Part shown: positions 13,895 to 23,378 of the stretch, in pieces
Position numbering within the stretch: the stretch's first letter is position 1
How the letters are laid out: each line of letters begins with the position of its first letter
Source: a bacterium
GTDB lineage: Archaea > Thermoplasmatota > E2 > JACPAO01 > JAHFTW01
Assembly (NCBI GenBank): GCA_040390065.1
Contig: JAZJZE010000009.1
Coordinates: 250,830-314,829, forward strand
DNA: 64,000 nt
Reading direction: 5' to 3'
The notes under the pieces: generated by a model
Database searches by the model: none
What the model saw: only the letters and a program-made list of their open reading frames with translations
What the model was told of the DNA's origin: nothing
Position numbers and translations under genes: made by a program

Positions 13895-14899
13895 ATGGAC
13901 ACCAAGACCCTCGAAGCCACCGCGCAGGCGCTGGTCGCCGGCACGAAGGGCATCCTCGCGGCCGACGAGTCGACGGCGACGATCGGCAAGCGCTTCCAGG
14001 CCATCGGCACCGAGTCGACGGAGTCGAGCCGCCGCGACTACCGCCACCTCCTCTTCACGACGCCGGGTGCGGGGGATTCGGTAAGCGGCGCCATCCTCTA
14101 CGACGAGACGTTGCGGCAGAAGGCGTCGGACGGGACGCCCATTGTCAGCGTGCTGGCCAAGGCCGGCATCATCCCCGGCATCAAGGTCGACACGGGCGCA
14201 TACGACCTGCCCAACTTCCCGGGCGAGAAGATCACGGAAGGGCTCGACGGGCTGCGCGGGCGCCTAGCGGAGTACCACAAGATCGGGGCGCGCTTTACCA
14301 AGTGGCGCGCCGTCATCACGATTGGCGACGGCATCCCGACCGGGTACTGCATCAAGGCCAACGCGCAGGCCCTCGCACGCTACGCAGCCTTGGCGCAGGA
14401 AGCCGGACTGGTCCCCATCGTCGAGCCCGAAGTCCTCATGGACGCGGACAACACGGTCGAGCGCTGCGAAGAGGTGACGGCCGAAGCGTGGCGCGTCACG
14501 TTCAACGCCTTGCGCAAGGCCCGCGTGCACCTGCCCGGAATGCTCCTCAAGCCGAACATGGTGATTGCTGGCAAGAAGTGCCCGGTGCAGGCGCCTGCCC
14601 AAGTCGTGGCGGAGCGCACCGTCACGCTGCTGCGCGCCCATGTCCCCCCCGCCGTGCCGGGCATCGTCTTCCTGTCTGGTGGCCAGTCGCCCGAGCAGGC
14701 AACGGAACACCTGCGTCTCATGAACCGCCTTGGTCCGCACCCGTGGAAACTGTCGTTCAGCTACGGCCGCGCCCTGCAGGACCCGGCCTTGAAGGCGTGG
14801 GGCGGCAAGCCGGCAAACGTCAAAGCTGCGCAGGACGCGTTTGCCAAGGTCGCAAGGGCGAATGCGGCGGCGTGCGCGGGAAAGACCCTCGTGGCGTAG
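13895..14899 (+). CDS. fba: fructose-bisphosphate aldolase class I (eukaryote/bacterial Glycolytic family)
   Basis: KGILAADES, PGIKVDTG, KWRAVI, VPIVEPEV, Schiff-base lysine LLKPNMV, FLSGGQS, FSYGRALQ. Confidence 0.95.
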   Translation: MDTKTLEATAQALVAGTKGILAADESTATIGKRFQAIGTESTESSRRDYRHLLFTTPGAGDSVSGAILYDETLRQKASDGTPIVSVLAKAGIIPGIKVDTGAYDLPNFPGEKITEGLDGLRGRLAEYHKIGARFTKWRAVITIGDGIPTGYCIKANAQALARYAALAQEAGLVPIVEPEVLMDADNTVERCEEVTAEAWRVTFNALRKARVHLPGMLLKPNMVIAGKKCPVQAPAQVVAERTVTLLRAHVPPAVPGIVFLSGGQSPEQATEHLRLMNRLGPHPWKLSFSYGRALQDPALKAWGGKPANVKAAQDAFAKVARANAAACAGKTLVA

Positions 14900-15326: not shown

Positions 15327-16307
15327 CTACGGCTGGGGCGAGCTTGCCGCGACGAGGTCTGGCATCTTCGTCCGTCCGCACAGCCACGCGTACAGTGCGT
15401 CTTCGCGGTAGCCGAACGGCGAGAGAAGGGTCTCGACGTTGCGCGCGAGGAGCCGGACGTAGGCGTCGATGGAGTACGTCTCGCGCGGCGAGCCGAACCA
15501 TGGCGATTGCTTGCCGAGGAGTTCCACGGGTTTGACCCGCGCATCCCAAGGGCCCGTCTGGCGCGACACGACGTACTTGACGTATTCGCCGGGCTTGCGT
15601 TCGGTGCCGGCGTCGCGCAGGAGTCTGAGGGCCGCCTTGGTGCCCGTGTTGGCGCTGTAGTCCTCGACGCTCATGCGGGCTTGCAGCATGAGGCCCAGGT
15701 CCTCGGGGTCGACTTCGCGTCGGCGCAGGCGTCCGGCGGCCTCCTTCGCGACGGCAAGGGCGCGTGGGATGCGCAGCAGGAAACCTTTGGCGTCATCCGC
15801 TTCGGCAAAGACGTCCAGCATGCCCTGCTGCACGTCGTACAGAAACGGCGGCGTGCTGTGGCGTTGCACCTCGATGCCGCGCACTTTGAGGGTGCCGTCC
15901 TCGAACTTGCCGTAGTAGCGGTTGGGCACGCCGACTTCGCTTGAGGTGCTGTGGGTCTTCGACGGCAACAGGACGAGCCAGCGGTAGACGCCTTCCACGT
16001 CCATGGGGACGCCGACTTCCTTGGAGACGAGGTGCGACACGTGCACGGCGTCGGCGCGCGTGATGCCGGGCTTGTGCAGGAAGACGCAGTCCGTGAGCGC
16101 GTGCACCATCGTGTAGCCTTCGCGCTGCGCCACTTCGCGGGCGCGCGTCATGCCCGCTCGTCCCAAGCATTGGATGGCCTGGTGCACCTCGGCGCAGCCG
16201 AAGCGGGCGTTGCGGTAGCGGAAGTAGCCGAAGCAGACGACGCCGAGGGCTTTGTGCTCGGATTTGATCGCTTTGGCCTTGGCGACGAGGTTGGAGGCGC
16301 TCGTCAT
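15327..16307 (-). CDS. polB2: DNA polymerase family B, PolB2 group, C-terminal half
   Basis: Motif B K..GVVCFGYFRYRNARFG, degenerate motif C HALTDC, VPNRYYG, LKVRGIEVQRHSTP, GEYVKYVV. Confidence 0.9.
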   Translation of the reverse strand: MTSASNLVAKAKAIKSEHKALGVVCFGYFRYRNARFGCAEVHQAIQCLGRAGMTRAREVAQREGYTMVHALTDCVFLHKPGITRADAVHVSHLVSKEVGVPMDVEGVYRWLVLLPSKTHSTSSEVGVPNRYYGKFEDGTLKVRGIEVQRHSTPPFLYDVQQGMLDVFAEADDAKGFLLRIPRALAVAKEAAGRLRRREVDPEDLGLMLQARMSVEDYSANTGTKAALRLLRDAGTERKPGEYVKYVVSRQTGPWDARVKPVELLGKQSPWFGSPRETYSIDAYVRLLARNVETLLSPFGYREDALYAWLCGRTKMPDLVAASSPQP

Positions 16308-16561
16308 CGGTACACCATCGAGCGGTGGCCGAAACGGAAGAACACAATTTCGTTTTCCTGGACGGCGTACATGCCGCGATAACGGCCGACATGGACGCGA
16401 TATGCTCCTCCATGCATCTTCATGACGTCGAGGCCTGGTCGAGGACGAAACGGGTTTTCCTGGAGCATCGTGAAGGCCTTCTTGAAATGCCGCTGGACAG
16501 GGTCGGGCAGGTCATCCAACTCCAGGAGGGCCGACGGGGCGATCGTGACAACAAACGGCAT
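16304..16561 (-). CDS. RelE/ParE family toxin
   Basis: 85 aa; LDDLPDPVQRHF..LQENPF, YRVHVGRYR..Y, GHRSMVY. Confidence 0.85.
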   Translation of the reverse strand: MPFVVTIAPSALLELDDLPDPVQRHFKKAFTMLQENPFRPRPGLDVMKMHGGAYRVHVGRYRGMYAVQENEIVFFRFGHRSMVYR

Positions 16562-16562
16562 C

Positions 16563-16787
16563 CTATACGAACTTCCCTTTCTTGCTGTCCCACGTCAAGC
16601 GCGGGCGTTCCTTCATGCGGCGGTCCATCTCCTTCCAGAACGCCTCCGTCGGGGTCTCGTCCATGAATGCGTTGAGCACGTCGTCGTACGTCTTGCCACC
16701 TACTTTGTACGACCTGAGGCGCCGGAGGGTCTCAGGCTTGACGGGGACGGAAGTGAAAGTGGTCGTGCGCAGGGGGGCCTTGGCCAT
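16563..16787 (-). CDS. putative antitoxin (RHH-like N-terminus)
   Basis: 74 aa directly upstream of the toxin; TSVPVKPETLRRLRSYK..GKTYDDVL. Confidence 0.75.
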   Translation of the reverse strand: MAKAPLRTTTFTSVPVKPETLRRLRSYKVGGKTYDDVLNAFMDETPTEAFWKEMDRRMKERPRLTWDSKKGKFV

Positions 16788-16820
16788 GACAATCATTACA
16801 GTCATGACAATCATGAACGT
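16785..16820. promoter_or_regulatory. candidate TA operator: 4 x 9-bp tandem repeat
   Basis: CATGACAAT CATTACAGT CATGACAAT CATGAACGT overlapping the antitoxin start; contains TCATGA palindromes. Confidence 0.55.
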
Positions 16821-16908
16821 TGCGGCAGCGGATTCATTTCACTGTCCCGGCCCAAACCATTGTCTACGCCAAGTCCATCGCATGCTGCCGCCCAGGCGGA
16901 AGTGAACC

Positions 16909-17325
16909 ATGGCCACCCAGACCAAGCAGACCCAGAAGCCCGCAGCCTCAATGACCTCGCGCAAGGTGCGTCCCGGTTTCATCTCGCACACCGAGCTCGC
17001 CAGCAAGGACCCTGCCGCCACGAAGGCGTGGTGCCAGAACGTCCTCGGGTGGCAGTTCGGCGCCCCCGTCGCGACTCCCAACGGCGACTACCACATGTGG
17101 CAGTTCGACGAGGCCAACGGCGGCGGCATCCGCAACACCAACGCGGGCGAACCCGGCGGCACCGTCCCCTACGCCGAGGTCACCGACATCAAGGCCGCCT
17201 ACGCCAAGGCCAAGAAGGCTGGCGCCACCGAGATGATGCCGCCCAGCGAAGTGCCCGGCGGCGGCTGGATCGCCATCGTGCAAGCCCCGGGTTCCGTCCC
17301 GATCGGGTTCTGGGCGCCGAAGTGA
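16909..17325 (+). CDS. VOC/glyoxalase family protein
   Basis: ISHTELASKDPAATKAW..VLGW, GGGI, PYAEVTDI, EVPGGGWIAIVQAPG. Confidence 0.88.
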   Translation: MATQTKQTQKPAASMTSRKVRPGFISHTELASKDPAATKAWCQNVLGWQFGAPVATPNGDYHMWQFDEANGGGIRNTNAGEPGGTVPYAEVTDIKAAYAKAKKAGATEMMPPSEVPGGGWIAIVQAPGSVPIGFWAPK

Positions 17326-17329
17326 AGCG

Positions 17330-17713
17330 CTAGCGCACGAACCACGCCGCAACCGATTCCGCGGCGAAGAGGGCGATGCCGATGCCGGTCCCGATGGCGG
17401 AGCCGTTTGGGCCCGTCGACAGGCTTTGCCACAGCGCGATGAGTGTGGCGGCCATGATGCCAGAGGCAAGAGACGCAATGCCCAGGCCCACGGCCGTATC
17501 GGCCCCCACTCGCCACGCGCCGTAGAGCATCACGGCGCCGCAGCCGACGGGCAAGAACCCGATGGCCAGCAGTCGGGCAAGGCGGGCATCGAAGCCGCCG
17601 CGTTCGCCGAAAGCAACCATCGTCACGGCGATCCAGTGGCCGACGCCCGAGAGGAGGGCCACGGCACCGAGGAGGAAAGCGGCAGTCGTTGCAATCCCCT
17701 GTGGGGTTGCCAC
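17330..17713 (-). CDS. small 4-TM membrane protein
   Basis: Four hydrophobic segments; fills the gap between the VOC gene and polB2-N. Confidence 0.6.
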   Translation of the reverse strand: MATPQGIATTAAFLLGAVALLSGVGHWIAVTMVAFGERGGFDARLARLLAIGFLPVGCGAVMLYGAWRVGADTAVGLGIASLASGIMAATLIALWQSLSTGPNGSAIGTGIGIALFAAESVAAWFVR

Positions 17714-17747
17714 GCCGTGGCATCGGGCAAGCGGACTTGGAGTTTCG

Positions 17748-19112
17748 CTATCCCGGGGCCTTCGCCTTCTTGAGCACGGCCTTCGCCCAGCGCCGGTGGC
17801 CCCACAAGCGACGCAGGATCTCTGACTGGTGTCCCTGCTCCTTGCAGACGTGGTAGCCGAGTTCCGGGATGACTTCGCCGTCGGGGCAGCACGTGCAATT
17901 CAGGGTATCGGACGAGAGGTTGTGGCGCACGACCAGGCTCGGGTAGTAGCCTGAGAAATCGCATGCCGCGACGTCCTCGTACAGGCCGGGTTCCGGCACC
18001 ATGATCTGGCCGCCGCGGTCGACGGCGCAGAGTGTGGCTGCGTCCTTCCAGTCTTCGGCCAGGTTGCGTTTCCACGGCAAGGCGACACCGCGGTCGGTGG
18101 CGAGGTCGATCTGCATCTGCTGCAGGGCGAAGCCGGCGCCGTTACGGTTGACATCCTGGGCTCTGCGGTTGGCCACACGTGCGAGGTACACGATGCCATG
18201 CAGGTCCTTGCGGTCGTCTTCGGAGTCGAGCGTCTTCTTGGCGAGGTCGATGTGCCAGCGGCCGCGCAAGTAGAAGGCGTGCGTCTTGAACAGCCAGCGG
18301 CCGTACGTGTGGATGCTCTTGCTGGCCTGGTCGGGCTTGTCGGGCAACGGGTCGGCGTCACGGCCCAGGCGCACCTCACCCTCGATGCCCAGGGCCTTGA
18401 TGCGGCTGAGGAGGAACGGAATGTCGAAGCGGTCGCCATGGCGCGTCACGATGACATCAGGGTCCAGAAGCGCAAGGGACGATGCAAAGGCGCGAAGCGT
18501 GTCGCGCTCTGCGGCTGCATCGCCAGGCGCCGCGCACGGCAGGACCTCGTCGCCGAGGCGGATGGACTCGAGCGGGTCCGTGAAGGCGGGCACGTAGCCG
18601 TCCTTGCGCGCGGTGACCTCGAGGCGTACAGTGCGCAGGTCGGGATCGGGGTATTCGACGGTCCAGCGGTCTTCCCCCGGTGCCGGGCGCAGTTCGATGC
18701 CCGAGGCCGAGGTTGCAAGGCGGCACATGGACCACAATCCCTGCGCATGCATCCAGCGCGACTCCTGGCCGTGGTCGACGTCGAAGAACAGGAAGCCCTT
18801 CGTGTGCGTGCGGCGCCGCAGGTCCGTCGCGATGGCCCACGTATCCTGCAGGCGCTTGGGTCGCACGCGAAGCACCTCGGTCTCGGGTCCGCGCAGCCAC
18901 AGCCGTTGCCGGGACCTCCAAGTCTTGTCGACGCGGCCGTCCTGCGCTAGCAGTTTTTCCGCAAGCGACAGCGGCTGTGTCTCGGCCTTGACGCAGAAAT
19001 CCGGGAAGTAGGGCACGAGCCGCTTCGTGACGGCATCGCCGTGCTTGACCCAGACGACGAGGCAGGACTTGCGCGGATGGGGGTAGACGTCGAAGAGCCA
19101 GGCGTCATCCAT
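17748..19112 (-). CDS. polB2: DNA polymerase family B, PolB2 group, N-terminal half
   Basis: WLFDVYP, DPDVIVTRHGDRFDIPFL, GRWHID, DRGGQIMVPEPGLYEDVAACDFSGYYPSLVVRHNLSSDTLNCTCC; ends after the first fingers helix. Confidence 0.9.
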   Translation of the reverse strand: MDDAWLFDVYPHPRKSCLVVWVKHGDAVTKRLVPYFPDFCVKAETQPLSLAEKLLAQDGRVDKTWRSRQRLWLRGPETEVLRVRPKRLQDTWAIATDLRRRTHTKGFLFFDVDHGQESRWMHAQGLWSMCRLATSASGIELRPAPGEDRWTVEYPDPDLRTVRLEVTARKDGYVPAFTDPLESIRLGDEVLPCAAPGDAAAERDTLRAFASSLALLDPDVIVTRHGDRFDIPFLLSRIKALGIEGEVRLGRDADPLPDKPDQASKSIHTYGRWLFKTHAFYLRGRWHIDLAKKTLDSEDDRKDLHGIVYLARVANRRAQDVNRNGAGFALQQMQIDLATDRGVALPWKRNLAEDWKDAATLCAVDRGGQIMVPEPGLYEDVAACDFSGYYPSLVVRHNLSSDTLNCTCCPDGEVIPELGYHVCKEQGHQSEILRRLWGHRRWAKAVLKKAKAPG

Positions 19113-19416: not shown

Positions 19417-19785
19417 TCACGCTTCCACGAGGACCGTCTGCCCGATGCGGCCCAACTCGTAGGCATCGGGTGCCTTGACGCGGCTCTCGACGAGGCCTGC
19501 GCCACGCAGCGCGGTCAGCGCCGCTTCGAGGTCGCGCCGCAGAAGGGCGAGTTCGCGGTTCTGGCCGTCCACCATCCGCATGCCCTCCAGTAGCATGGCC
19601 AGCATGACGGGGCGTTCGAAGTCGAGGTGCGGGCGCCGGTTGATGGCGTTGGAGTGGCGGCGGGCGCGGCAGACGAGTTCGTCGAACCACTCCTGCTCGC
19701 GCGGGTGCAGTTCGGCGCGAAACTGGGCGTAGCGAGAAAGGAAGATGTCCAGCGCGATTGTCGTGGTCGGGGTGGATTGTCCCAT
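19417..19785 (-). CDS. PolB2-associated small helical protein (arCOG07300-like)
   Basis: MGQSTPT...FRAELHPREQEWFDELV..ARRH...FERPVMLAMLLE followed by a coiled coil; upstream of polB2. Confidence 0.75.
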   Translation of the reverse strand: MGQSTPTTTIALDIFLSRYAQFRAELHPREQEWFDELVCRARRHSNAINRRPHLDFERPVMLAMLLEGMRMVDGQNRELALLRRDLEAALTALRGAGLVESRVKAPDAYELGRIGQTVLVEA

Positions 19786-20299: not shown

Positions 20300-21025
20300 T
20301 CATCCGAGTTTGGCCTGCTGCGGCTTCTTGGCACTGGCCTCACCCCAAACCTTGGCTCCGCCTTGCGGTTTCACGGCCTCGGGATCCCCGCGCCGCTTCC
20401 ACACGTCCTCGGCGATGGGCACCATCTCGTACGCGTCGTTGGCCGCCGGAACGAGGAGGTTCTGCAAGGCCTCCTTCCCCGTTGCCGCCGGATCCATCCA
20501 AGCGTCTTGCCGGACCCGCGAATCCAATTCCACCACGAAGCGGTCGTGGACCTGCGCCACGAAGTCGTTGGCCGGCGCCGTCACTTGCACGTGGCCGAGG
20601 TCGTCGTACTCGTTGCCCGTACTGGTGAAGGCGTAGTGACGGCGGGCCATGAGGGCTGCAACGACCATCAGCTTGCCATCGCGGCGTTGGATGCGGAAGG
20701 CGGCCTTGGTCTTCGCGTCGCGCTCGACGACGTAGGAGATTGCGGCGAGCGCGTGGTGCTCCGGCTTGCCGAAGAGACCGCGCCACGCCGGGGATACGAG
20801 GTTGTCTCCTCGCGCATTCGTCAGCAGGCGTGGGCCGACCGGCATCCCGAGGCGCACCTTGTCCACGACGCGCTCGCCACCCTCGAGGCGGGCCACCGGC
20901 AGGAAGTCGGCGTGGTGCACGAGCGGCCGCGCGATGCGGTCGCCGGCGTCGTAGACGTAGCGCGTGCCGCCGAGGGCGTCGATGACCTCCATCGAGCTTG
21001 CATCGATGCCTTCGAGTCCGGCCAT
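20300..21025 (-). CDS. SRAP/HMCES-family protein, paralogue 2 (divergent)
   Basis: LTNARGDN, YVVE, VTAPANDFVAQVHDR, DAWMDP; N-terminus MAGLEG. Confidence 0.75.
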   Translation of the reverse strand: MAGLEGIDASSMEVIDALGGTRYVYDAGDRIARPLVHHADFLPVARLEGGERVVDKVRLGMPVGPRLLTNARGDNLVSPAWRGLFGKPEHHALAAISYVVERDAKTKAAFRIQRRDGKLMVVAALMARRHYAFTSTGNEYDDLGHVQVTAPANDFVAQVHDRFVVELDSRVRQDAWMDPAATGKEALQNLLVPAANDAYEMVPIAEDVWKRRGDPEAVKPQGGAKVWGEASAKKPQQAKLG

Positions 21026-21033
21026 GCCACATC

Positions 21034-21747
21034 TCAGAACCAGGTTGCCGGCTTCTTCGCCGCCGCCTTGCGGGGTGTTGCGCCGTAGCGCATCGCTTCG
21101 CCGATCGGAACCAAGTCGGCGTCCTCGCGGATGCCTGGCTTGAAGATGCGGTCGTCCACGGGGACGGCTTCCCATTCGTCCTCCGCCGGATGGTGCAGGA
21201 TCGCCGCGGCCTCCTTCTTTTCCGTCGCGGCCATCCATGCGTCGGCCTCCTTGGGCGACAGCGTGCAGACCTGGCGGTCGTGGAACTGGCCGAAGAACTT
21301 GTTCGGCGCCGTCGTCACGATGGCGCAGCACAACCTGCCTTCGCCCTCGTCCATCTTGCGGGGTGCGCAGAGGCCCGGCATGACGATTGGTCGGCCGTCG
21401 ATGCGGCGGAACCACAGGCTCGTCTTCTTGCCGTCGATGGTGGCTTGCTCGTAGATGCCCGTGGCGGCAACCAGGCACGGTGACTTTGCGAGCATCGAAC
21501 CCCACATCGGGCTCTCCAGCAAGCGGTCGTCCCGAGCGTTGCCGACGGGCCGGCCGCCGCCGACGGGGAAGCCCCAGCGCGCACGCACGGCCACACGTTC
21601 CCGGTCCTTGTTGACGGCGATGGGCAGGGTCGTCGTGAGGCGGACGACGGGGTGCGGAACCCAGTCGCCCTCGTAGTCCCACTTGGAGACGCGCAGGGCG
21701 TCCTGGATGTCGATGTCGGCGGCTTGCAGTCCGATGAGGCCGGCCAC
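21034..21747 (-). CDS. SRAP/HMCES-family protein, paralogue 1
   Basis: ARWGF, NARDD, CLVAATGIYE, CAIVTTAPN..FHDRQ, DAWM. Start GTG 21747 gives MAGLIG. Confidence 0.85.
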   Translation of the reverse strand: MAGLIGLQAADIDIQDALRVSKWDYEGDWVPHPVVRLTTTLPIAVNKDRERVAVRARWGFPVGGGRPVGNARDDRLLESPMWGSMLAKSPCLVAATGIYEQATIDGKKTSLWFRRIDGRPIVMPGLCAPRKMDEGEGRLCCAIVTTAPNKFFGQFHDRQVCTLSPKEADAWMAATEKKEAAAILHHPAEDEWEAVPVDDRIFKPGIREDADLVPIGEAMRYGATPRKAAAKKPATWF

Positions 21748-21773: not shown

Positions 21774-23378
21774 CTACTTTGCGGCCTTGCGCAGGAGCGG
21801 CCGTTCCACGCCGATTGCGTAGGTCTTGTAGCGACCTTGGAAACGCACGGCGATGATGCCCTCGTTCTGCAAACGGGCCAAGCGGTGCTGCGTCGTGCTG
21901 CGCGACCAGCCGCACGTCTCCATGGCGTTGAGGACATCCTTCTGCGGGGCGCCCGGGTGGGCCTCGATCCAGGAGCGCAGGTTCGCCAACTCAGGATCGC
22001 GCAGCACGGCGGTATGGCGCCACGTTTCGGTGTAGCGGCCGTGGTTCTCGAAGAAACGCATGCGCGAATGGTGTTGGTACTCGATGACGAGCCCGGCGCG
22101 CTTCAGGACGTTGAGGTGGTGCCGCGTCGTGCCCGTCGGGATGCGTACACTTCGGCAGACCTCGCGGAAGCTGGCACCGGGGTGCTCGCAGATGAAGGCG
22201 TGCAGGCTGGCGCGGCGCGGATGGGCAAGCGGGTCCTGCGGCGCGGTGAGAAGCGGCGCCAGGAAACGCAACAGGACCAGGAGCGCCGCAAGGCCGAGGA
22301 CGGCCTCACCAGTGACCGCGATGCCGGACACGAGGGTCGCCGGTGCCGGGCTTTCGTCGAGTCGCGCGTCCTGAAGCTCACCGCCGAATCCGGCAGCCGC
22401 CGAACGAGGGCCGGTCGAATGCAGCCCGCCCAGGATGACGTGGCCCGAGGCAAGCAGCGTCTGGTTGTGGGGCCCATCGCACTGCGCGCAAGAGGACGCC
22501 GAGGCAAGGGGCAGACGGACCCAGCCATCGACCTCGACATCGAAGGCCGGCCCGCCGGCCAGCGCGAAGTCGAGGGCCCCTTGCGCAGTGAGGTTGCCGC
22601 CATTCGTCCGGAACTCCTGGTGCGACAGATGGTCGACCGTCACCTCGCTGCCTGCAAGGGAGGGCGCAGCGATGCGGGTGCGGCCGCCCGGCGGCGGGCA
22701 TGGTCTTTGGGTGCACTCGGTGGACGCGTTGAACCATTCGAGTTGCCGCACGCCGGTGGCGTTGAGGGTGAACATTTCGCCACGCCCGTTTGCCCAGACG
22801 AGGTACGTTTCGTTGTCCGGGACGTCCGGAACGCGCACCGCCAAAGGCTCGTCGATGACGGTTGGCAGGAGCGGACCGATGCCTTCGTTGGAGTTGGCGA
22901 TGGCGGCCCGTCCCGTGGTCCTGAAGTCGATGCGGTCGGCCACGAGGACGAGGGAGGAGGAACCAGGGCGGCGGAAGTCGAGGGACAGGTCGTTCCATGG
23001 CGCCGGATCTTGGCGCGGTGCGTCCTGGCCTGGCCCCATCCAGCCGCCTCCCAGTGTGCCGTTGCGCATCGCTCGGACGTTCTGCATGGTGTGGTTGACG
23101 AGGGTGCCCCCGCCGAGGTTCTCGGCCCGAAGTGTGACGGCATCCGGACCGTCGGCCATGAACCAGAGGATCAGTCGCGTCACGGCGGTCGCGTTCTCGT
23201 GCCCCCCGGCGGCGGCAGGGATCGCAAACGAGACTCTGGGCTGGTCCGCGTCCGTTGCGACGGCGGTGGGGGGGAGCACGGCGGCAAGGACGATGGCGAT
23301 GCTGGCCGCGACCTGCAACCGCAACCGTAGGCGTGGGGCTGCGTGGCCGGAGTTGGAAGCGAATCTGTTGGTCTGCAT
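21774..23378 (-). CDS. membrane-anchored double winged-helix regulator with large extracellular N-terminal domain
   Basis: Signal peptide, a TM segment, then PLAHPRRASLHAFICEHPGASFREV and a second HTH WIEAHPGAPQKDV..STTQHRLARL. Confidence 0.8.
   Translation of the reverse strand: MQTNRFASNSGHAAPRLRLRLQVAASIAIVLAAVLPPTAVATDADQPRVSFAIPAAAGGHENATAVTRLILWFMADGPDAVTLRAENLGGGTLVNHTMQNVRAMRNGTLGGGWMGPGQDAPRQDPAPWNDLSLDFRRPGSSSLVLVADRIDFRTTGRAAIANSNEGIGPLLPTVIDEPLAVRVPDVPDNETYLVWANGRGEMFTLNATGVRQLEWFNASTECTQRPCPPPGGRTRIAAPSLAGSEVTVDHLSHQEFRTNGGNLTAQGALDFALAGGPAFDVEVDGWVRLPLASASSCAQCDGPHNQTLLASGHVILGGLHSTGPRSAAAGFGGELQDARLDESPAPATLVSGIAVTGEAVLGLAALLVLLRFLAPLLTAPQDPLAHPRRASLHAFICEHPGASFREVCRSVRIPTGTTRHHLNVLKRAGLVIEYQHHSRMRFFENHGRYTETWRHTAVLRDPELANLRSWIEAHPGAPQKDVLNAMETCGWSRSTTQHRLARLQNEGIIAVRFQGRYKTYAIGVERPLLRKAAK

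What the first reader, a model, noticed from the sequence alone, without database searches (positions are those of the whole stretch)
20300..21747. Tandem SRAP/HMCES paralogues that both have Ala in place of catalytic Cys2
Seen: the N-termini align without gaps (MAGLIGLQAADIDIQDALRVSKWDYE vs MAGLEGIDASSMEVIDALGGTRYVYD). Both keep NAR, the Glu (GIYE / YVVE) and HDR motifs, but start M-A-G rather than M-C-G. Known: SRAP proteins (YedK, HMCES) use Cys2 to form a thiazolidine crosslink that shields ssDNA abasic sites, and C2A mutants lose the stable crosslink and favour Schiff-base AP-lyase cleavage. Inference: a natural C2A subfamily, possibly a heterodimer, that cuts or hands over abasic sites rather than protecting them.
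Basis: partly seen in the sequence, partly recalled or inferred. Interest (0 to 1): 0.8.

Follow-up and report, generated by a model that had tools for sequence, protein, structure and literature searches.

The report
Natural alanine-for-cysteine SRAP abasic-site proteins
Two adjacent archaeal genes encode abasic-site (SRAP/YedK/HMCES-type) proteins whose normally essential crosslinking cysteine is replaced by a conserved alanine, so they probably cut or only briefly hold damaged DNA instead of locking onto it.

Summary
Two minus-strand genes, 21034-21747 (T1, GTG start, MAGLIGL) and 20300-21025 (T2, ATG start, MAGLEGID), are both SRAP proteins by Pfam and by predicted fold. They are 35% identical.

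Ala2 is not a start-codon or sequencing artefact:
- 117 of 120 listed T1 homologues and 42 of 46 T2 homologues carry the same N-terminus.
- All four Ala codons are used, and in-frame stops lie just upstream in relatives.
- The Asn, Glu and His-x-Arg of the YedK active site are invariant.

New here:
- The genome has a third Ala2 paralogue (MAGVIGL) and one Cys2 SRAP.
- In relatives, T1, a Cys2 type (MCGRVVWVWD), T2 and T3 form a four-gene array.
- The SRAP genes sit beside a PolB2-like translesion polymerase operon in 10 of 16 fetched loci.
- Cys-to-Ala arose at least three times.
- The clade is tiny: 7 of 14,512 SRAP representatives, all from uncultured Thermoplasmatota.

The mechanism is inferred from YedK C2A biochemistry (PMC9436759): either AP lyase activity or reversible Schiff-base holding. 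The heterodimer idea got no verdict. I found no paper on this in five searches. The scan noted the same thing earlier on another genome (e1-1201472).

The parts
21034..21747 (-). SRAP paralogue T1 (237 aa, GTG start, N-terminus M-A-G-L-I-G-L; N70, E100, H156, R158)
   Evidence: Searches give the sequence. PF02586, E 3.8e-28. AF2 pLDDT 87, pTM 0.84. YedK TM 0.76-0.80, Z 23.4; 117 of 120 homologues carry the same N-terminal motif.
20300..21025 (-). SRAP paralogue T2 (241 aa, ATG start, N-terminus M-A-G-L-E-G-I-D; N70, E101, H160, R162; T2-specific conserved insert around F133-T149)
   Evidence: Searches give the sequence. PF02586, E 3.1e-14. AF2 pLDDT 89.9, but residues 1-7 are under 50. Z 22.7 to SRAP structures over residues 9-222; 42 of 46 homologues carry AGLEGID; invariant columns.
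19417..19785 (-). Small conserved helical-looking protein (122 aa). The N-terminus MGQSTPTTT is identical in the 7 copies compared. Candidate PPB2-like partner of the polymerase.
   Evidence: No Pfam or PADLOC hit. The PPB2 reading rests only on size, position and the conserved N-terminal arm described in PMC11791011.
17748..19112 (-). N-terminal half of a PolB2-like family B DNA polymerase (exonuclease-like domain plus motif A, DFSGYYPS)
   Evidence: PF03104 and PF00136, weak scores; 62-78% identical to relatives' polymerases, which are single ORFs in L037, L039, L042, L043, L044 and L047.
15327..16307 (-). C-terminal half of the same polymerase. Motif C reads L-T-D, so the first Asp is missing.
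   Evidence: PF00136 positions 164-413; sequence; synteny. PMC11791011 states that PolB2 lacks the first Asp of DxD.
16909..17713 (.). 1.4 kb insert that splits the polymerase gene. It carries a glyoxalase-family gene (16909-17325, +) and a membrane-like ORF (17330-17713, -).

Best explanation
These are genuine, functional SRAP-fold proteins of a small archaeal clade in which the N-terminal nucleophile Cys2 has been replaced by Ala, while the rest of the abasic-site pocket is kept.

Most likely mechanism:
1. Methionine is removed.
2. The protein binds an abasic site in single-stranded DNA as YedK does.
3. It opens the sugar ring with Glu100/101 and His156/160.
4. The free alpha-amine of Ala2 attacks to give a Schiff base.
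5. With no thiol the thiazolidine ring cannot close, so the link is not locked. It either resolves by beta-elimination (AP-lyase cleavage) or reverses and releases the lesion.

The genes belong to a DNA-damage-tolerance module. In relatives, three Ala2 types and one Cys2 SRAP sit in one array next to a PolB2-like translesion polymerase operon. The Ala2 proteins therefore plausibly process or hand over the lesion that the Cys2 type would lock.

Shown: the identity, fold, conservation, recurrence and gene context. Inferred: Met removal, the Schiff base, and the cleavage or hand-over outcome.
For: SRAP identity and fold:
- Pfam match for both proteins.
- AF2 pLDDT 87 and 89.9.
- Foldseek TM 0.76-0.80 to YedK, including the C2A Schiff-base complex 8D2M.
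- VIA Z 23.4 and 22.7.
- The T1 model aligns from residue 1 onto YedK residue 2.

Ala2 is selected, not decay:
- A2 and G3 are invariant across 16 sequences of three paralogue types that are only 32-41% identical between types. N70, R72, E100, T145, H156 and R158 are invariant too.
- Comparing 33 Ala2 rows with 28 Cys2 rows, eleven canonical positions are shared. The only consistent changes are C2A, the YNxxP motif (Y->P, A->R) and one A->P.
- All four Ala codons occur at position 2.

Recurrence:
- The T1/T2/T3 rows form one side of a branch (SH-aLRT 90, quick tree).
- Within the Cys2 'TC' lineage, Ala appears in two separate well-supported subclades (98 and 99).
- One of these was read from DNA as ATG GCC GGA.
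- The replacement is always Ala, never Ser, Gly or Thr, and Cys-to-Ala needs two base changes.

Chemistry precedent (passages read in PMC9436759): YedK C2A forms no DPC. It forms a borohydride-trappable imine between the N-terminal Ala and the AP site (crystal structure 8D2M). It cleaves AP-DNA, and both steps depend on Glu105.

Context:
- A polymerase plus SRAP neighbourhood occurs in 10 of 16 fetched loci.
- Four-gene SRAP arrays occur in L035, L036 and L037, and in part in L038, L040 and L041.
- A DUF72 gene lies beside the polymerase in L039.
- PMC11791011 reports SRAP and DUF72 enriched near polB2.
Against: No assay was possible, so every chemical step is borrowed from an E. coli point mutant.

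YedK C2A is a slow lyase. The paper's rate constant is 0.05, against 1.7 for imine formation under borohydride; I did not see the units. Cutting ssDNA at a fork would make a double-strand break, which is an odd thing to select for.

The N-terminal seven residues of the T2 model have pLDDT under 50, and the first ten of T1 average 63. The models therefore do not confidently seat Ala2 in the pocket.

The older Ala2 clade has also lost Arg4 of the canonical M-C-G-R start and the Y-N-x-x-P motif. DNA handling may differ from YedK.

Archaeal N-terminal acetylation of Ala (recalled, from no call) would block the amine.

No RNA data were found. In this genome the array is scattered: T3, the iRadA-like gene and the Cys2 copy lie elsewhere.
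Confidence: 0.5

Rival explanations
1. Non-covalent lesion reader. The Ala2 SRAPs have given up covalent chemistry altogether. They act as abasic-site or ssDNA-junction binding subunits that mark the lesion or recruit and regulate the neighbouring PolB2-like polymerase. The conserved N-terminus serves as a structural or protein-contact element rather than as a nucleophile.
For: - There is no thiol.
- The N-terminus has low confidence in both models.
- The N-terminal motif is longer than chemistry needs. MAGLIGL, MAGLEGID and MAGVIGL are each nearly fixed within their type, which resembles an interaction arm.
- The link to the polymerase operon is conserved.
- YedK binds AP analogues non-covalently (PDB 6NUH appears among the fold matches).
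Against: A mere binder would not obviously need Glu, His and Asn to stay invariant. Nor would it need residue 2 to be Ala in every member, or Ala to be reached again and again in independent lineages.
Confidence: 0.3
2. Hetero-oligomer with division of labour. T1, T2, T3 and the Cys2 type assemble, pairwise or all together. The Ala2 subunits position DNA for the single Cys2 subunit, or control the reversal of its crosslink.
For: - Four paralogues sit in one array in several genomes.
- T1 and T2 are 8 bases apart here.
- The contig lengths listed for T1 and T2 homologues coincide repeatedly, for example 6478, 2107, 42624, 8566, 3564, 10136, 9306, 4181, 5842 and 24518.
- Wild-type YedK can crosslink to the 3' end left by YedK C2A cleavage (passage in PMC9436759). 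A cut-then-cap relay is therefore chemically possible.
Against: - Solved SRAP proteins act as monomers on DNA (recalled).
- One genome (G247, 88% complete) showed four SRAP matches, all with Ala2 and no Cys2 partner.
- This genome lacks the TC type and has only a divergent Cys2 copy on another contig.
Confidence: 0.12
3. Artefact. The true proteins start at a Cys that is hidden by a wrong start call, a frameshift or a sequencing error.
For: In this window a Cys-Gly precedes the Met of T2 in frame. T1 has another in-frame GTG four codons upstream.
Against: - The same M/V-A-G start occurs in 117 of 120 T1 and 42 of 46 T2 homologues from many independent assemblies.
- The upstream Cys-Gly is not conserved.
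- In six loci, in-frame stops with no possible start in between pin the start.
Confidence: 0.02

Closest known systems
E. coli YedK and human HMCES (canonical SRAP proteins, PF02586)
   Same: - Same fold: Z 22-23, TM 0.76-0.80.
- Same length, with the N-terminus as the start of the domain.
- Same Asn, Glu and His-x-Arg pocket residues, plus G3, G59, D117, T145 and W171.
- Same kind of genomic company, namely translesion polymerases (PMC3765255; PMC11791011).
   Different: Residue 2 is Ala, so the thiazolidine crosslink that defines YedK/HMCES function cannot form. Arg4 of M-C-G-R and the Y-N-x-x-P motif are also replaced in the older Ala2 clade. The proteins occur as three co-resident paralogue types rather than as one gene.
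YedK C2A laboratory mutant (PDB 8D2M; PMC9436759)
   Same: N-terminal Ala in an otherwise intact SRAP pocket. 8D2M is among the top fold matches. It is the only experimental model for what an Ala2 SRAP does: imine formation with the AP site, no stable DPC, and Glu-dependent beta-elimination.
   Different: It is an engineered loss-of-function variant of a Cys2 protein. The archaeal proteins are natural, conserved and only about 22-25% identical to it. Their rates and outcomes may have been tuned by selection.
Archaeal/bacterial PolB2 mutasome operon (iRadA-PPB2-PolB2) with neighbouring SRAP and DUF72 genes (PMC11791011)
   Same: - The polymerase has a weak exonuclease-domain match and motif C lacks the first Asp.
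- A small protein with an invariant N-terminal arm lies upstream, and in relatives a conserved gene of about 200-240 aa lies before that.
- DUF72 lies beside the polymerase in one relative, and SRAP genes are adjacent.
   Different: - The paper mentions SRAP only as an enriched neighbour. In the passages I read it says nothing about residue 2 or paralogue arrays. Its supplements were not seen.
- The small protein's arm reads MGQST rather than MGRT.
- Neither accessory protein hits Pfam.
- In this window the polymerase gene is split and the iRadA-like gene lies about 80 kb away.

Membership tests
SRAP superfamily (Pfam PF02586), membership by descent | Significant match to the family profile above the curated cut-off | tested here: met
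   T1 98.9 bits and T2 53.4 bits against a cut-off of 27.1. The same holds for the third Ala2 copy and the Cys2 copy of the genome.
SRAP superfamily (Pfam PF02586), membership by descent | SRAP fold | tested here: met
   AF2 models with pLDDT 87 and 89.9. All 21 chains with Z >= 8 belong to the listed SRAP entries. Best Z is 23.4 (rmsd 2.9, 210 aligned) for T1 and 22.7 (rmsd 2.7, 203 aligned) for T2.
SRAP superfamily (Pfam PF02586), membership by descent | Conserved Asn, Glu and His of the pocket (YedK N75, E105, H160) | tested here: met
   N70, E100 and H156 (T1) and N70, E101 and H160 (T2) are invariant in A1, A2, A3 and A4. They align to the YedK motifs.
YedK/HMCES-type abasic-site crosslinkers (functional class) | Cysteine as residue 2, described as absolutely conserved and always the second residue (PMC3765255). 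It is the thiol needed for the thiazolidine link (PMC9436759). | tested here: not met
   Residue 2 is Ala in T1 and T2 and their homologues. They are therefore not filed as members of this functional class.
YedK/HMCES-type abasic-site crosslinkers (functional class) | Formation of a stable DNA-protein crosslink with an AP site in ssDNA | not testable with these tools
   Needs purified protein and AP-DNA.
AP lyases acting through an N-terminal amine Schiff base (functional analogy: YedK C2A) | Free N-terminal alpha-amine in the pocket, borohydride-trappable imine, beta-elimination product | not testable with these tools
   Only the sequence prerequisites are seen. A small residue after Met should allow Met removal (recalled rule). 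Glu and His are retained. The T1 model N-terminus overlays the YedK N-terminus, but with low local confidence.
PolB2 mutasome operon (context) | Family B polymerase lacking the first Asp of motif C, with PPB2 (small helical protein, conserved N-terminal arm) and iRadA neighbours | tested here: inconclusive
   Motif C is L-T-D. The small protein has an invariant MGQSTPTTT arm. An upstream conserved gene occurs in relatives and elsewhere in this genome. Neither accessory protein has a Pfam hit, and I made no direct comparison with a named PolB2, PPB2 or iRadA.

The most novel reading that the evidence does not exclude
Uncultured Thermoplasmatota carry a lesion-processing array of four SRAP paralogues, three with Ala2 and one with Cys2, that works with a PolB2-type translesion polymerase. 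Cys-to-Ala is a recurrent adaptive switch that turns an abasic-site 'lock' into a dedicated ssDNA AP lyase or a reversible lesion chaperone. That chaperone would hand the site to the polymerase, and the Cys2 member may then cap the cleaved end. This would be the first natural SRAP enzyme that is not a suicide crosslinker, and a new accessory layer of an archaeal mutasome.
Probability: 0.25. Interest if true: 0.85.

Novelty: new variant of a known kind. Interest (0 to 1): 0.72.

Why it matters
The paper that founded the SRAP family describes Cys2 as absolutely conserved (passage read in PMC3765255). All mechanistic work treats the thiazolidine crosslink as the point of the family.

A natural clade that keeps the whole pocket but has Ala at position 2, and that reached Ala at least three separate times, shows the fold has a second selected mode of action. 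The only existing model for that mode is the laboratory C2A mutant.

This makes a clear question directly testable with ordinary biochemistry: lyase, reversible imine or pure binder. It also offers natural proteins for studying the steps before ring closure. The array next to a PolB2-like polymerase ties SRAP chemistry to archaeal translesion synthesis, where the handling of abasic sites is poorly understood.

Tried and rejected
- **Complex prediction of T1 with T2** (alignments A3 and A4). The verdict was 'no answer': score 0.00 against a mark of 0.32, and the controls were not run. It says nothing for or against binding.
- **Sequencing runs**. No RNA holder is listed. The only holder is a DNA run that may be the source of the assembly, so I did not lay reads.
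- **PADLOC**. No defence-system family matched T1, T2 or the small protein.
- **NCBIfam**. Only a far sub-threshold match to the YedK subfamily model: 43.5 and 23.7 bits against a cut-off of 349.
- **phmmer of T2 against PDB sequences**. No hit at E <= 0.01. The fold search was needed to tie T2 to solved structures.
- **The careful tree** did not finish in 288 s. The quick tree is what I cite. Its Ala2 branch has SH-aLRT 90, and the genome's own Cys2 copy sits on a very long branch (2.66), so its placement as sister to the Ala2 clade is unsure. I dropped one row (the L047 T3 copy) because its N-terminal part is in another frame.
- **Looking for an iRadA gene downstream of the polymerase halves.** The region 13895-14899 (+) instead encodes what looks, by recalled sequence hallmarks, like a class I fructose-bisphosphate aldolase (no family search run).
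- **Earlier notes of this scan** by place and by words returned nothing.
- **Paper PMC7494546** (a SRAP structural review) is not held.
- **Supplements are closed.** Supplementary Table S1 and the data files of PMC11791011 may list these very operons, and Additional file 1 of PMC3765255 may list non-Cys members. I could not see either.
- **Literature searches** found no paper describing a natural non-cysteine SRAP. This holds only for the library searched.
Full report
**What is there.** The window is a 68% G+C stretch of contig C9 of a 2.68 Mb, 89%-complete genome. Close homologues are labelled Thermoplasmatota or Thermoplasmata MAGs. Two genes lie head to tail on the minus strand.
- T1 runs from 21747 to 21034. 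It has a GTG start and encodes 237 aa beginning (M)AGLIGLQAADIDIQDAL.
- T2 runs from 21025 to 20300. It has an ATG start and encodes 241 aa beginning MAGLEGIDASSMEVIDAL. My first translation of T2 was one base off.
- Eight bases separate the two genes.

Both match Pfam SRAP above threshold, E 3.8e-28 and 3.1e-14. They are 35% identical over their whole length. N70, E100 and H156-D-R158 in T1, and N70, E101 and H160-D-R162 in T2, line up with the YedK INAR, GWFE and IHDR motifs.

**Is Ala2 real?** Yes.
- Of the 120 best T1 homologues, 117 have the AGL[I/M]G[L/I] motif. Of these, 95 start exactly at M/V-A-G. The other 22 are longer gene calls in which the residue before A-G is V (11), M (10) or I (1). 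Three are truncated calls.
- Of the 46 T2 homologues, 42 have AGLEGID and 38 of those are at residue 2. Four are truncated or fragments.
- I read 30 Ala2 gene starts from DNA in the window and 17 loci. The start codon is ATG 18 times and GTG 12 times. Codon 2 uses all four Ala codons: GCC 19, GCA 5, GCT 3, GCG 3.
- Nine of the 30 have an in-frame stop within 12 codons upstream. Six of those nine have no possible start in between.
- The Cys-Gly that precedes the T2 Met in this window is not seen at that place in any of the seven other T2 starts read from DNA.

**Fold.** The AlphaFold2 models reach pLDDT 87.0 (T1) and 89.9 (T2).
- For T1, Foldseek's top matches are YedK, including the AP-DNA crosslink 6NUA and the C2A Schiff-base complex 8D2M (TM 0.76-0.80), and then HMCES.
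- VIA-align gives Z 23.4 (T1, model residues 1-218 on YedK 2-225) and Z 22.7 (T2, residues 9-222). Every strong match is a SRAP structure.
- One caveat applies. The first ten residues of T1 average pLDDT 63, and residues 1-7 of T2 are under 50. The models do not confidently seat the N-terminus.

**More paralogues and an array.** The genome has four SRAP matches.
- The third (contig C9, about 417 kb, outside the window) begins (M)AGVIGLRGPDIEKRDAL. I call it T3.
- The fourth (contig C5) begins MCIFVDQ and has Cys2.

I searched a profile of the three Ala2 types against 301 genomes of the phylum. Sixty-one had some SRAP match at E <= 1e-10. Only 15, this genome included, had full-length Ala2-type matches (best E 1e-49 to 6e-107). 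The next best genome scored 3.6e-25. The 15 fall in six of the tool's families.

In fetched loci the SRAP genes form arrays:
- L035 has T1, a Cys2 type (start read as M-CGRVVWVWD; I call it TC), T2 and T3 in that order.
- L036 and L037 hold the same four genes in a different order.
- L040 and L041 hold parts of the array on short contigs.
- L038 has TC, T3 and T1, with T2 on another contig of the same genome (L039).

In this genome the array is dispersed and no TC orthologue was detected.

**How rare, and how it arose.** The Ala2 profile found 14,512 SRAP proteins at E <= 0.001 among 1.84 billion cluster representatives. Only 7 scored at E <= 1e-30, and these are the Ala2 clade. The next score is 2e-27. 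Of the best 150, 117 start M-C and 6 start M-A. The nearest Cys2 relatives are of the MCGR[IV]V.V[WY]D kind, that is TC.

In a quick maximum-likelihood tree of 64 rows (one frameshifted row dropped):
- The 34 T1/T2/T3-type rows lie on one side of a branch (SH-aLRT 90).
- TC and its relatives form a separate clade (98).
- The genome's own Cys2 copy is a very long branch next to the Ala2 clade.

Within TC, 4 of 30 close members have Ala2, 24 have Cys2 and 2 are truncated calls. One Ala2 member was read from DNA as ATG GCC GGA CGT. In a tree of 35 rows these fall into two separately supported subclades (98 and 99) nested among Cys2 forms. Cys-to-Ala therefore happened at least three times in this archaeal radiation. 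Each event needed two base changes and each ended at Ala.

**What stayed and what changed.** I compared 33 Ala2 rows with 28 Cys2 rows.
- Shared positions: M1, G3, G59, N70, R72, E100, D117, T145, N149, H156, R158 and W171.
- Consistent differences: C2A; the canonical Y-N-x-x-P motif (Y to P, A to R at T1 positions 33 and 36); and one A to P at position 124.
- Arg4 of the usual M-C-G-R start is L or V in T1-T3, but is retained in the young TC-derived Ala2 forms.

**Context.** Downstream on the same strand lie, in order:
- A 122-aa gene (19785-19417) whose N-terminus MGQSTPTTT is identical in all seven copies compared.
- A family B polymerase that is split here into an N-half (19112-17748) and a C-half (16307-15327) by a 1.4 kb insert. 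The insert carries a glyoxalase-family gene and a membrane-like ORF.

Polymerase hits lie beside the SRAP genes in 10 of the 16 fetched loci, and the small gene in 6. Motif C of the polymerase reads L-T-D, lacking the first Asp.

In five relatives a conserved gene of about 200-240 aa precedes the small gene. Its homologue in this genome lies at C9:350799-351440. One relative has DUF72 next to the polymerase.

This pattern fits the iRadA-PPB2-PolB2 operon described in PMC11791011. That paper also notes SRAP and DUF72 as enriched neighbours (passages read). I made no direct comparison with a named PolB2, PPB2 or iRadA, so this identification is inferred.

**Mechanism.** The only experimental guide is YedK C2A (passages read in PMC9436759).
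- Without the thiol, no stable crosslink forms.
- The N-terminal Ala amine makes an imine with the ring-opened AP site, trapped and solved as 8D2M.
- The DNA is then cleaved by beta-elimination.
- Glu105 is needed for both steps.
- Wild-type YedK can crosslink to the cleaved 3' end.

Ala2, Gly3, Asn, Glu and His-x-Arg are all fixed in the archaeal proteins, and Ala was reached repeatedly. I therefore think the pocket is still used and the N-terminal amine is still the reactive group. That would give a link that is not locked, with either cleavage or release and hand-over as the outcome (confidence 0.5).

The main rival is a purely non-covalent lesion reader or polymerase cofactor (0.3). A hetero-oligomer among the paralogues is possible (0.12). 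The one complex job gave no verdict.

**Novelty.** The founding SRAP paper states that the cysteine is absolutely conserved and always the second residue. Five full-text searches found no report of a natural non-cysteine SRAP. Supplements and one review could not be read.

The scan had already noted tandem Ala2 SRAP paralogues on another genome (e1-1201472), and that note reaches the same reading. It is not independent evidence.

I class this as a new variant of a known kind. Added here are the third paralogue type, the four-gene array with a Cys2 member, the recurrence of Cys-to-Ala and the link to a PolB2-like operon.

Noticed in passing
window 15327-19112 (-), with L035, L036, L048: The PolB2-like polymerase gene is split at the same point into N and C halves in this window and in three relatives. 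The cargo between the halves differs:
- here, a glyoxalase-family gene and a membrane ORF;
- in L036, a kelch/galactose-oxidase-like gene;
- in L035, a DUF7557 gene and a nucleotidyltransferase gene.
In six other loci the polymerase is one ORF. A PADLOC 'homing endonuclease' profile matches the two halves on either side of a gap of about 560 positions. This suggests the split coincides with a known intein site.
   Followed up: partly
window 19417-19785 (-): A 122-aa protein whose N-terminus MGQSTPTTT is identical in all 7 copies compared, with no Pfam or PADLOC hit. It is a candidate PPB2-like polymerase partner. Its arm differs from the published MGRT motif.
   Followed up: partly
G000:C9:350799-351440 (outside the window); L043:13081-13800, L042:5533-6243, L039:730-1497, L035:16674-17291, L044:12490-13728: A conserved gene of about 200-240 aa with no Pfam hit lies upstream of the small gene in relatives, at the place where iRadA sits in PolB2 operons. 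In this genome it is about 80 kb from the polymerase.
   Followed up: partly
L004:1432-2121 (-) = G000 contig C5: The genome's only Cys2 SRAP starts M-C-I-F instead of M-C-G-R and has H-D-T instead of H-D-R. It sits on a very long branch. Whether it is functional was not examined.
   Followed up: no
P0219, P0280, P0189: Among the best 150 SRAP representatives, three others do not start M-C. They start MPGRLGLW, MVARLTQI and MFIFTWED. They may be further non-cysteine forms or wrong start calls.
   Followed up: no
window 21774-23378 (-): A 534-aa protein just upstream of T1 on the same strand. It has what looks by eye like a hydrophobic membrane-spanning segment (no membrane prediction run) and C-terminal winged-helix domains (HVO_0163-type HTH, Csa3-like by PADLOC). 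It is not conserved next to the SRAP genes in relatives.
   Followed up: partly
L047:2433-3243 (-) and L043:7686-9597: The T3 copy in L047 changes frame near its N-terminus, which points to a frameshift or an assembly error. In L043 a PIN/VapB pair and a MazE-like gene lie between the T1 and T3 genes.
   Followed up: no
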